Positions 12,519-12,600 of a stretch of DNA of 64,000 bases are shown one piece after another. The notes under the pieces are model-generated. The model ran no database searches, was not told the DNA's origin, and was given only the letters and a program-made list of their open reading frames with translations. Positions within the stretch are counted from its first letter, which is position 1; every line of letters begins with the position of its first letter. The position numbers and the translations under genes were made by a program. The stretch is taken from NCBI RefSeq assembly GCF_048403405.1, contig NZ_CP183129.1, one strand, 5' to 3'. This DNA comes from Escherichia coli. GTDB taxonomy: Bacteria > Pseudomonadota > Gammaproteobacteria > Enterobacterales > Enterobacteriaceae.

Positions 12519-12600
12519 CTGATGCGCTACGCTTATCAGGCCTGGAAAGATGCACAATCGAGTAGGCCGGATAAGGCGTTTACGCCGCATCCGGCATGGA
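12519..12600. repeat. REP/BIME element (two REP palindromes)
   Basis: Sequences ctgatgcgctacgcttatcaggcctgg and gtaggccggataaggcgtttacgccgcatccggcatgg match the enterobacterial REP consensus. Confidence 0.8.

What the first reader, a model, noticed from the sequence alone, without database searches (positions are those of the whole stretch)
12519..12600. REP/BIME elements at several convergent gene ends
Canonical REP palindromes occur at 12519-12600 (yggL/yggN), 24048-24113 (yggR/ruvX), about 30111-30130 (downstream of metK) and 36061-36100 (speB/loiP). This is normal enterobacterial intergenic architecture and explains most palindromes outside the island.
Basis: partly seen in the sequence, partly recalled or inferred. 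Interest (0 to 1): 0.15.

Follow-up and report, generated by a model that had tools for sequence, protein, structure and literature searches.

The report
Ordinary E. coli REP/BIME repeats
These are the well-known short palindromic REP repeats that sit between E. coli genes; three copies are textbook examples and the rest are decayed or atypical relics, so the finding is real but ordinary.

Summary
The window is an E. coli chromosome segment (pheV to zapA). All four sites contain REP-family sequence at the stated coordinates, but only part of it is canonical.

- **Canonical copies.** There are three full palindromic units: a z2 + y pair at 12517-12596 (yggL>yggN) and a z2 at 24050-24078 (yggR/ruvX). 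They lie 1-3 mismatches from consensus. An independent covariance model scores them at E 5e-16 to 3e-6.
- **Site 2, second half.** Only the 3' half of a y unit remains.
- **Site 3.** This is a half-exact, non-folding y relic downstream of the metK terminator (model E 0.8).
- **Site 4.** This is a strong REP-shaped hairpin with a y-type foot. It fails the y/z1/z2 consensus scan (model E 0.2) and is single-copy.

For sites 3 and 4, REP ancestry rests on comparison with other strains and loci.

- Only two of the four junctions are convergent.
- REPs are the strongest hairpin in only 3 of 42 intergenic spacers. Many of the others look like terminators.

REP content here differs from K-12: 5 scan-positive units at 4 loci, against 14 at 6 loci. 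This is known biology and of low interest.

The parts
12517..12545 (-). z2-type REP (palindromic unit). It reads as an iREP on the + strand. The foot tetranucleotide is CTGG instead of CTAC.
   Evidence: 3 mismatches to the z2 consensus, with 0 of 100 shuffles matching. Covariance model 27.8 bits, E 2.6e-6. RNA hairpin -10.5 kcal/mol. Conserved in K-12.
12546..12561 (.). 16-nt short linker between the two inverted REPs of the site-1 pair.
   Evidence: Read directly from the sequence. Conserved in K-12 with 1 substitution. Its motif class (S linker) was not tested.
12562..12596 (+). y-type REP with an intact 5' GTAG (12562-12565) and the bulged stem.
   Evidence: 1 mismatch to the y consensus. 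Covariance model 58.6 bits, E 4.6e-16. Hairpin -20.9 kcal/mol, z -3.5. 31 of 32 nt identical to the REP oligonucleotide crystallised with TnpA-REP (sequence quoted, PMC3479197).
12626..12655 (+). Context: intrinsic-terminator-like hairpin plus T-rich tail, 30 nt downstream of the REP pair and just upstream of the yggN start (12668).
   Evidence: Terminator scan. Conserved in K-12.
24050..24078 (-). z2-type REP between convergent yggR (stop 24016-18) and ruvX (stop 24133-35). The foot reads TTAC on the + strand.
   Evidence: 1 mismatch to z2. Covariance model 39.9 bits, E 3.9e-10. Hairpin -13.6 kcal/mol, z -4.7. No T-run terminator on either strand.
24090..24107 (+). 3' half of a y REP (TTCACGCCGCATCCGGCA). 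The 5' arm is deleted relative to K-12.
   Evidence: Exact 13-nt half-site. The full-length y comparison is 11 edits, chance level. The alignment to K-12 shows the missing arm.
30112..30142 (-). Degenerate y REP relic (K-12 REP215 position). It lies downstream of the metK intrinsic terminator (30158-30182, - strand) and upstream of galP.
   Evidence: 17 nt exact, then diverged; 7 edits against a chance minimum of 9. Covariance model E 0.79. No REP-type hairpin forms. K-12 carries a shorter relic, and strain 2017-02-2CC carries a full y + z2 pair here. REP215 annotation.
36061..36097 (+). REP-shaped imperfect palindrome (y-type foot GCCGGAT/ATCCGGC, 2x2 internal loop, 5-bp upper stem). It fills the 47-bp speB/loiP spacer and starts at the first base after the speB stop codon. 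The flank is GTAAGC rather than GTAGG.
   Evidence: Hairpin -23.7 kcal/mol on +, z -6.4; -19.5 kcal/mol on -. 10-12 edits from y/z1/z2. 4 edits over 33 nt from the long y-foot REPs at nupX-yeiI and ygjK-fadH. Covariance model E 0.2. K-12 has 3 REPs in this spacer. This allele is in 358 of 5426 genomes and is not dispersed.
58950..58970 (.). It is identical to the K-12 sequence listed as REP212.
   Evidence: Identity to K-12 3060661-3060681. REP212 listing. It fails my scans: 9 edits from z2 and covariance model E 3.8. Extended 12-bp stem, -21.4 kcal/mol.

Best explanation
The four sites are members or relics of the E. coli REP (palindromic unit) / BIME family of dispersed extragenic repeats.

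Anatomy:
- Site 1 is an intact z2-linker-y inverted pair (BIME-2-type composition) in the 3' UTR of trmB-yggL.
- Site 2 is one intact z2 plus a truncated y between convergent yggR and ruvX.
- Site 3 is a decayed y unit left over from a BIME, beyond the metK terminator.
- Site 4 is a diverged long y-foot unit that fills the speB/loiP spacer.

How they work (taken from the literature on the family, not tested here):
- The DNA repeats are generated, rearranged and lost through the single-copy REP-associated tyrosine transposase (TnpA-REP/RAYT). It binds a REP through its 5' GTAG and its stem bulge, and it cuts at CT dinucleotides.
- When transcribed, intact units form 3'-UTR hairpins that block 3'->5' exonucleases and act as leaky, partly Rho-dependent terminators. 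They thereby tune the flanking genes.
- Only the intact hairpins (12517-12596, 24050-24078, 36061-36097) are expected to be active. The relics at 24090-24107 and 30112-30142 are probably inert.
For: - **Host and context.** The window is 96-100% identical to E. coli chromosomes, with the expected flanking genes.
- **Sequence.** Three units match consensus far beyond chance and score E 5e-16 to 3e-6 against a model built from REPs of other loci.
- **Structure.** Among those 12 reference REPs the foot helix covaries: 12 cells changed on both sides, with 0 of 500 shuffles reaching that. The window units fold as bulged hairpins.
- **Dispersal.** The site-1 element hits a median of at least 28 places per genome. 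160,790 places are chromosomal and 107 are on plasmids.
- **Location.** All are extragenic and on the 3' side of genes, at 2 tandem and 2 convergent junctions. This fits the reported split of about 40% tandem and 60% convergent.
- **Relics confirmed by comparison.** Another strain has a full y + z2 pair at site 3. K-12 has the complete y at site 2 and 3 REPs at site 4. Site 4 is 88% identical over 33 nt to bona fide GTAG-bearing REPs elsewhere.
- **Locus polymorphism typical of BIMEs.** The site-2 allele is in 596 of 5426 genomes and the site-4 allele in 358 of 5426. K-12 has 14 units at 6 loci in the syntenic 57 kb, against 5 at 4 loci in the window.
- **Definitions and mechanisms.** These come from PMC3333891, PMC3479197 and bioRxiv 10.64898/2026.03.23.713779. 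That preprint also lists REP215 and REP212 as overlapping in-vitro Rho-binding sequences.
Against: - Sites 3 and 4 are not significant in a window-wide model scan (E 0.79 and 0.2). One coding-region hit (53076-53115, E 0.018) outranks both.
- Site 4 lacks GTAG and is single-copy. Its closest REP relatives were found by searching with site 4 itself, at E 0.1-0.4, so that comparison carries a selection effect.
- Site 3 cannot form the REP hairpin. It lies after a strong intrinsic terminator, so little metK transcript should reach it.
- No functional assay, transcript end map or RAYT gene is available in the window. Every mechanistic step is inferred from family membership.
Confidence: 0.9

Rival explanations
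1. Sites 3 and 4 (and the argP-downstream palindrome at 58950-70) are not REPs. They would be independent hairpins, or chance similarity to a GC-rich palindromic consensus, acting as plain transcript-end structures.
For: Covariance-model E-values are 0.2, 0.79 and 3.8. Edit distances are at or near the chance level. There is no GTAG/CTAC, and site 4 is not dispersed. Site 3 does not fold as a REP.
Against: Site 3's exact 17-mer GCCGGATGCGGCGTGAA continues into a full y + z2 BIME in strain 2017-02-2CC at the same position, and K-12 annotates it as REP215. Site 4 shares GCCGGATAAGATGCG with the middle REP of K-12's array in the same spacer. It also has the REP-specific architecture of a 7-bp y foot plus a symmetric internal loop. 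Foot-type palindromes are rare by chance: a mean of 0.7 per random window, against 7 observed.
Confidence: 0.12
2. The hairpins are ordinary Rho-independent terminators that happen to resemble REPs.
For: They sit at gene 3' ends and are stable (-10 to -24 kcal/mol).
Against: None of the four sites has the T-run that the terminator scan requires. The true terminator-like sites are separate structures at 12626-12645 and 30158-30182. The sequences recur dozens of times per genome, which terminators do not.
Confidence: 0.04
3. Site 1 encodes a small protein, the 46-aa 'hypothetical protein' WP_001296361.1 that PGAP calls at 12507-12647.
For: It is annotated in some RefSeq genomes.
Against: The ORF is simply a reading of the z2-linker-y-terminator sequence. 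It has no NCBIfam match, and many genomes with the same DNA carry no annotation there. The DNA is a dispersed repeat.
Confidence: 0.02

Closest known systems
E. coli REP / palindromic units, classes y, z1 and z2 (Gilson/Bachellier nomenclature as used by Ton-Hoang et al. 2012, PMC3333891)
   Same: 12562-12596 is a near-consensus y unit with GTAG and a bulged stem. 12517-12545 and 24050-24078 are near-consensus z2 units. All are extragenic, on the 3' side of genes and multi-copy.
   Different: 30112-30142 and 24090-24107 are truncated or degenerate. 36061-97 has a y foot but a longer, z1-like upper stem, no GTAG, and is single-copy.
BIME-2 (z2 + y separated by a short linker, usually in tandem copies)
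   Same: Site 1 is z2 and y in inverse orientation, with their GTAG/CTAC ends facing a 16-nt linker.
   Different: There is a single pair and no tandem amplification. The identity of the linker and flanking motifs (S, s/l/r) was not tested.
K-12 MG1655 annotated REP elements at the same loci (REP212 argP-scpA, REP215 metK-galP, REP217 hemW-yggM; EcoCyc list as used in bioRxiv 10.64898/2026.03.23.713779)
   Same: The REP212 sequence is identical in the window. The REP215 relic is present. The yggL-yggN pair is 96% identical to K-12.
   Different: REP217 is absent, replaced by a TRAP transporter operon plus IS1. The K-12 fbaA-mscS BIME is absent. The yggR-ruvX and speB-loiP arrays have 1.5 and 1 units instead of 3 and 3.
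REP325 (yjdM-yjdN) as a functional model: a dual 3'-UTR stabiliser and partly Rho-dependent attenuator
   Same: Site 1 has the same setting, a REP between tandem genes in the 3' UTR of the upstream gene.
   Different: Site 1 has only 2 units, against the multi-hairpin array of REP325, whose Rho dependence needed the full array. Site 1 is also followed by its own terminator-like hairpin.

Membership tests
REP (palindromic unit) | Sequence match to the y, z1 or z2 consensus | tested here: met
   Met for 12562-12596 (1 mismatch), 12517-12545 (3) and 24050-24078 (1), with covariance-model E of 2.6e-6 or better. NOT met for 36061-97 (10-12 edits, E 0.2), 30112-42 (7 edits, E 0.79), 24090-107 (half only) or 58950-70 (E 3.8).
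REP (palindromic unit) | 30-40 nt imperfect palindrome with non-complementary bases in the stem | tested here: met
   Bulged hairpins are predicted for both site-1 units, the site-2 z2 and site 4. Not met for site 3, which forms no REP-type stem, or for the site-2 half unit.
REP (palindromic unit) | Conserved GTAG 5' of the foot (CTAC on the other strand) | tested here: inconclusive
   Intact only at 12562-12565. The others read CTGG (12542-45), TTAC (24075-78) and GTAAGC (site 4), and site 3 has none. About 1 of 6 units would be a competent TnpA-REP binding site by the criteria in PMC3479197.
REP (palindromic unit) | Extragenic location, typically at 3' ends (tandem or convergent junctions) | tested here: met
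   All lie in spacers: 2 tandem (yggL>yggN, metK>galP) and 2 convergent (yggR/ruvX, speB/loiP).
REP (palindromic unit) | High copy number, dispersed on the chromosome | tested here: met
   The site-1 element has a median of 28 places per genome (capped) in 5425 of 5426 genomes. Not shown for site 4, which has a median of 1 place. The searches for sites 2 and 3 were too stringent to see short copies.
REP (palindromic unit) | A cognate RAYT/TnpA-REP gene in the genome | not testable with these tools
   The gene (yafM locus in K-12, from my own knowledge) lies outside the 64-kb window.
BIME | [quoted passage not shown] | tested here: met
   Met at site 1 (z2, 16 nt, y). Site 2 has one full unit and a half. 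Sites 3 and 4 are single units.
BIME-2 | z2 + y composition, short S linker, tandem multiple copies with s/l/r flanks | tested here: inconclusive
   The composition and the short linker fit. There is only one copy, and the linker and flank motif identity was not tested.
BIME-1 | z1 + y with the long conserved L linker carrying an IHF site | tested here: not met
   There is no z1 match in the window, and the linker is 16 nt.
Rho-independent terminator | GC-rich stem immediately followed by a T run | tested here: not met
   No terminator-like call overlaps any REP. Separate terminator-like hairpins lie at 12626-45 and 30158-82.

The most novel reading that the evidence does not exclude
The minority speB/loiP allele is a single REP-derived hairpin that starts at the first base after the speB stop codon and ends 10 nt from the loiP stop. 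It is present in about 7% of complete E. coli genomes, where K-12 has a 205-bp, 3-REP spacer. It might act as a strain-specific bidirectional attenuator, or as a stop-codon-proximal translation brake, that retunes agmatinase and LoiP expression. More broadly, the filled and empty REP sites seen here (fbaA-mscS, hemW-yggM, metK-galP) could serve as natural before/after pairs for how BIMEs are gained and lost.
Probability: 0.15. Interest if true: 0.25.

Novelty: already known. Interest (0 to 1): 0.07.

Why it matters
It matters mainly for housekeeping. It correctly labels these palindromes so they are not mistaken for novel RNA structures, small ORFs (RefSeq calls a spurious 46-aa protein over site 1) or terminators. 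It also shows that REP content at orthologous spacers differs between strains, so REP-bearing spacers are where alignments to K-12 break. No new biology is implied.

Tried and rejected
- **Fuzzy-regex scan.** It timed out and was replaced by a bit-parallel edit-distance scan.
- **K-12 RefSeq table.** It carried no REP features, so K-12 REP names could be recovered only for REP212, REP215 and REP217, from a preprint supplement. I do not assign numbers to the other loci.
- **Generic inverted-repeat tool.** It did not pick up bulged REP hairpins. I used a sliding RNAfold survey of intergenic spacers instead.
- **Rfam.** It has no family over any site; the only hits are 6S, SibC and tRNA-Phe.
- **Model hit at 53076-53115 (E 0.018).** It lies inside srsR coding sequence and was treated as a false positive. 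This also calibrates how weak the site 3 and site 4 scores are.
- **Foot-type hits at 1736-66 and 63932-61.** These are at chance level; the null mean is 0.7 per window.
- **Liang et al. 2015 (Mol Cell).** The paper on stop-codon-proximal REPs could not be retrieved, so that idea is cited from memory only.
- **Supplements of PMC3333891.** They are not held.

Full report
**Identity of the window**

A 1-kb query around site 1 is 100% identical to several E. coli chromosomes and is present in 5423 of 5426 complete genomes. It lies under trmB, yggL and yggN. Comparison with K-12 MG1655 and strain 4621 gives the gene order: pheV tRNA-Phe, yqgA, speC, nupG, mltC, yggX, mutY, trmB, yggL, yggN, ansB, yggM ... 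yggR, ruvX ... galP, metK, speA, speB, loiP, tkt ... argP ... ssrS, zapA. The window runs in reverse orientation to K-12.

**The observation, site by site**

The sequence reads GTCTGATGCGCTACGCTTATCAGGCCTGG (12517-12545), then a 16-nt linker, then GTAGGCCGGATAAGGCGTTTACGCCGCATCCGGCA (12562-12596).
- The first element is a z2 unit with 3 mismatches, and the second is a y unit with 1 mismatch. No shuffle produced any such match.
- The y unit keeps its 5' GTAG and bulged stem. It is 31 of 32 nt identical to the REP co-crystallised with TnpA-REP.
- The pair is conserved in K-12 at 96%.

Site 2 (24048-24113).
- GCCTGATGCGCTACGCTTATCAGGCTTAC (24050-24078) is a z2 unit with 1 mismatch.
- It is followed by TTCACGCCGCATCCGGCA (24090-24107), which is only the 3' half of a y unit. 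The full-length y comparison is 11 edits, while random windows reach 9-11.
- K-12 has a z2-like, a z1 and a complete y in this spacer. The window lacks the 5' arm of the y unit.

Site 3 (about 30111-30130).
- GCCGGATGCGGCGTGAA (30112-30128) is an exact y half. The rest (TGTCTATCCACCGC) is degenerate, giving 7 edits overall against a chance minimum of 9.
- It does not form the REP hairpin.

Site 4 (36061-36100).
- GCGCCGGATAAGATGCGTTATGCGTCAAATCCGGCGU is a very stable bulged hairpin: -23.7 kcal/mol, z -6.4.
- It is 10-12 edits from y, z1 and z2, which is chance level.

**A calibrated, independent scan**

I built a covariance model from 12 REPs taken from other loci or other strains. Orthologues of the window's own units were excluded, as were the two REPs found by searching with site 4. 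In that reference set the foot helix covaries strongly: 12 cells changed on both sides, and 0 of 500 shuffles reached the observed score.

Scanning the whole window without filters gave:

| Position | Strand | Bits | E-value | Note |
|---|---|---|---|---|
| 12562-12596 | - | 58.6 | 4.6e-16 | site 1, y |
| 24049-24078 | + | 39.9 | 3.9e-10 | site 2, z2 |
| 12516-12545 | + | 27.8 | 2.6e-6 | site 1, z2 |
| 53076-53115 | + | 15.7 | 0.018 | inside srsR coding sequence; false positive |
| 36063-36095 | - | 12.4 | 0.2 | site 4 |
| 30114-30138 | + | 10.6 | 0.79 | site 3 |

Three units are therefore canonical. Sites 3 and 4 do not pass a consensus or model scan on their own.

**Why sites 3 and 4 are still REP-derived**

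Site 3:
- Strain 2017-02-2CC has a complete y unit plus a z2 partner at exactly this position. Most strains have the window-like relic, and K-12 has a version 13 nt shorter.
- The K-12 relic is annotated as REP215, a tandem metK>galP element.

Site 4:
- K-12 carries three REPs in a 205-bp speB-loiP spacer. The middle one shares GCCGGATAAGATGCG with the window hairpin.
- Elsewhere in E. coli genomes, GTAG-bearing REPs at nupX-yeiI (in a BIME with a z2 partner) and at ygjK-fadH read GCCGGATAAGACGCGTTAAGCGTCGCATCCGGC. That is 4 edits over 33 nt from site 4. One of the changes converts a G-C pair to G-U.
- A caveat applies: those relatives were found by searching with site 4 itself, at E 0.1-0.4.
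- The site-4 allele occurs in 358 of 5426 genomes and is not dispersed.

**Gene context**
- yggL (12158-12484, +) and yggN (12668-13387, +) are tandem. metK and galP (both -) are tandem. yggR(+)/ruvX(-) and speB(+)/loiP(-) are convergent. The title is therefore half right.
- A 2/2 split is unremarkable, given the reported ~40% tandem and ~60% convergent distribution.
- At site 1 the pair lies 32 nt after the yggL stop codon and 30 nt before a separate terminator-like hairpin at 12626-12645.
- At site 3 the relic lies downstream of the metK intrinsic terminator at 30158-30182.
- Sites 2 and 4 have no T-run terminator on either strand.
- The site-4 hairpin begins at the first base after the speB stop codon (36058-36060) and ends 10 nt from the loiP stop codon (36108-36110).

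**Dispersal and density**
- The 84-nt site-1 element matches a median of 28 places per genome (capped at 40 pieces per record). 160,790 of those places are chromosomal and 107 are on plasmids.
- With 355 annotated REP elements and 697 units in MG1655, about 5 loci per 64 kb are expected. The window has 4, or 5 counting the REP212 equivalent.

**The claim that REPs explain most palindromes**

I folded 44-nt windows across all 42 intergenic spacers of at least 25 nt outside the island. The strongest hairpin is a REP in only three: yggL/yggN, yggR/ruvX and speB/loiP. Many of the other strong hairpins are GC stems followed by T runs. Examples are speC/nupG, ansB, tkt, fbaA, mscS, yggE, argP, serA and metK. 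The claim is not supported.

- The palindrome GCCTGATAGCACATATCAGGC at 58950-58970, downstream of argP, is identical to the K-12 sequence listed as REP212. It fails my scans (E 3.8).
- No other REP was found anywhere in the window by full-length, half-site, foot-type or model scans.

**Comparison with K-12**

The same scan on the syntenic 57 kb of K-12 finds 14 units at 6 loci, against 5 at 4 loci in the window.

| Locus | K-12 | Window |
|---|---|---|
| fbaA-mscS | perfect y + z2 BIME | none: empty site with a single copy of the terminator that flanks the K-12 BIME on both sides |
| hemW-yggM (REP217) | three units | none: replaced by a dctPQM TRAP operon plus IS1 |
| yggR-ruvX | 3 units | 1.5 units |
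| speB-loiP | 3 units | 1 unit |

The megablast alignment between the window and K-12 breaks exactly at the REP-bearing spacers of sites 2 and 4. This is the known locus-to-locus and strain-to-strain variability of BIMEs.

**Mechanism**

Everything here is established for the family and inferred for these copies.
- TnpA-REP binds a REP through its 5' GTAG and stem mismatch, and cleaves at CT dinucleotides in iREPs and linkers. This provides a route to BIME diversification, amplification and loss.
- Only the y unit at 12562-12596 meets those binding criteria here.
- As RNA, REPs block 3'->5' exonucleases and act as leaky, partly Rho-dependent terminators. REP215 and REP212 are among the REPs overlapping in-vitro Rho-binding sequences.
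- From my own knowledge (Liang, Rudd and Deutscher 2015, not retrievable here): REPs within about 15 nt of a stop codon can stall terminating ribosomes. Site 4 fits that geometry.

**Verdict**

However, 'canonical' applies to three units only, 'convergent' to two sites only, and the 'most palindromes' claim fails. This is textbook biology, so novelty is 'already known' and interest is low.

Noticed in passing
window 58950-58970: A z-foot palindrome downstream of argP, identical to the K-12 sequence listed as REP212. It fails consensus and model scans and looks more like a terminator stem (12-bp perfect stem, -21.4 kcal/mol).
   Followed up: yes
window 15733-19714: A segment of about 4 kb that is absent from K-12, between yggM and hemW. 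It holds a TRAP transporter operon (DctM 15788-17089, DctQ 17089-17601, DctP 17637-18623, all on the - strand) plus an IS1 transposase ORF (18806-19309). It replaces K-12's 3-unit REP217. In strain 4621 an IS1 has truncated the large-permease (DctM-type) gene and the rest of the TRAP operon is absent.
   Followed up: partly
window 15751-15777: A perfect 9-bp hairpin, GCCGGATAA-TATAAAAAG-TTATCCGGC, flanked by TTT and AAA, between convergent yggM and dctM. It uses the y-REP foot sequence but has no bulge and an AT loop. It is probably a bidirectional terminator (model E 1.5).
   Followed up: partly
window 49632-49821 (compare L011 14800-15175): An 'empty site'. K-12 has a perfect z2-linker-y BIME (35-nt AT-rich linker) in the fbaA-mscS spacer, flanked on both sides by copies of the fbaA terminator. 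The window has one terminator copy and no BIME.
   Followed up: partly
window 34273-35004: A 243-aa ORF between speA and speB that is absent from K-12. It has a lipoprotein-type signal (…LLAGC), no Pfam or NCBIfam match, and somewhat lower GC (0.41-0.49). Strain 4621 carries an IS110-family insertion immediately upstream, at about 34265-34277.
   Followed up: partly
window 39140-40387: An SPFH/Band 7 (prohibitin-family) gene (39181-40089, - strand) between tkt and cmtB that is absent from K-12.
   Followed up: partly
It holds a TraI_2-type relaxase/helicase ORF (885-2534) and a tyrosine integrase (2544-3620), abutting tRNA-Phe (pheV, 3854-3929, - strand). Its content differs from strain 4621 at the same tRNA.
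   Followed up: partly
window 12507-12647: RefSeq/PGAP annotates a 46-aa 'hypothetical protein' (WP_001296361.1) that is just a translation of the z2-linker-y-terminator sequence. This is probably a spurious gene call.
   Followed up: partly
window 62667-62817 and 63466-63649: SibC antitoxin RNA (with the ibsC toxin ORF on the opposite strand) and 6S RNA (ssrS). Apart from tRNA-Phe, these are the only Rfam hits in the window.
   Followed up: no
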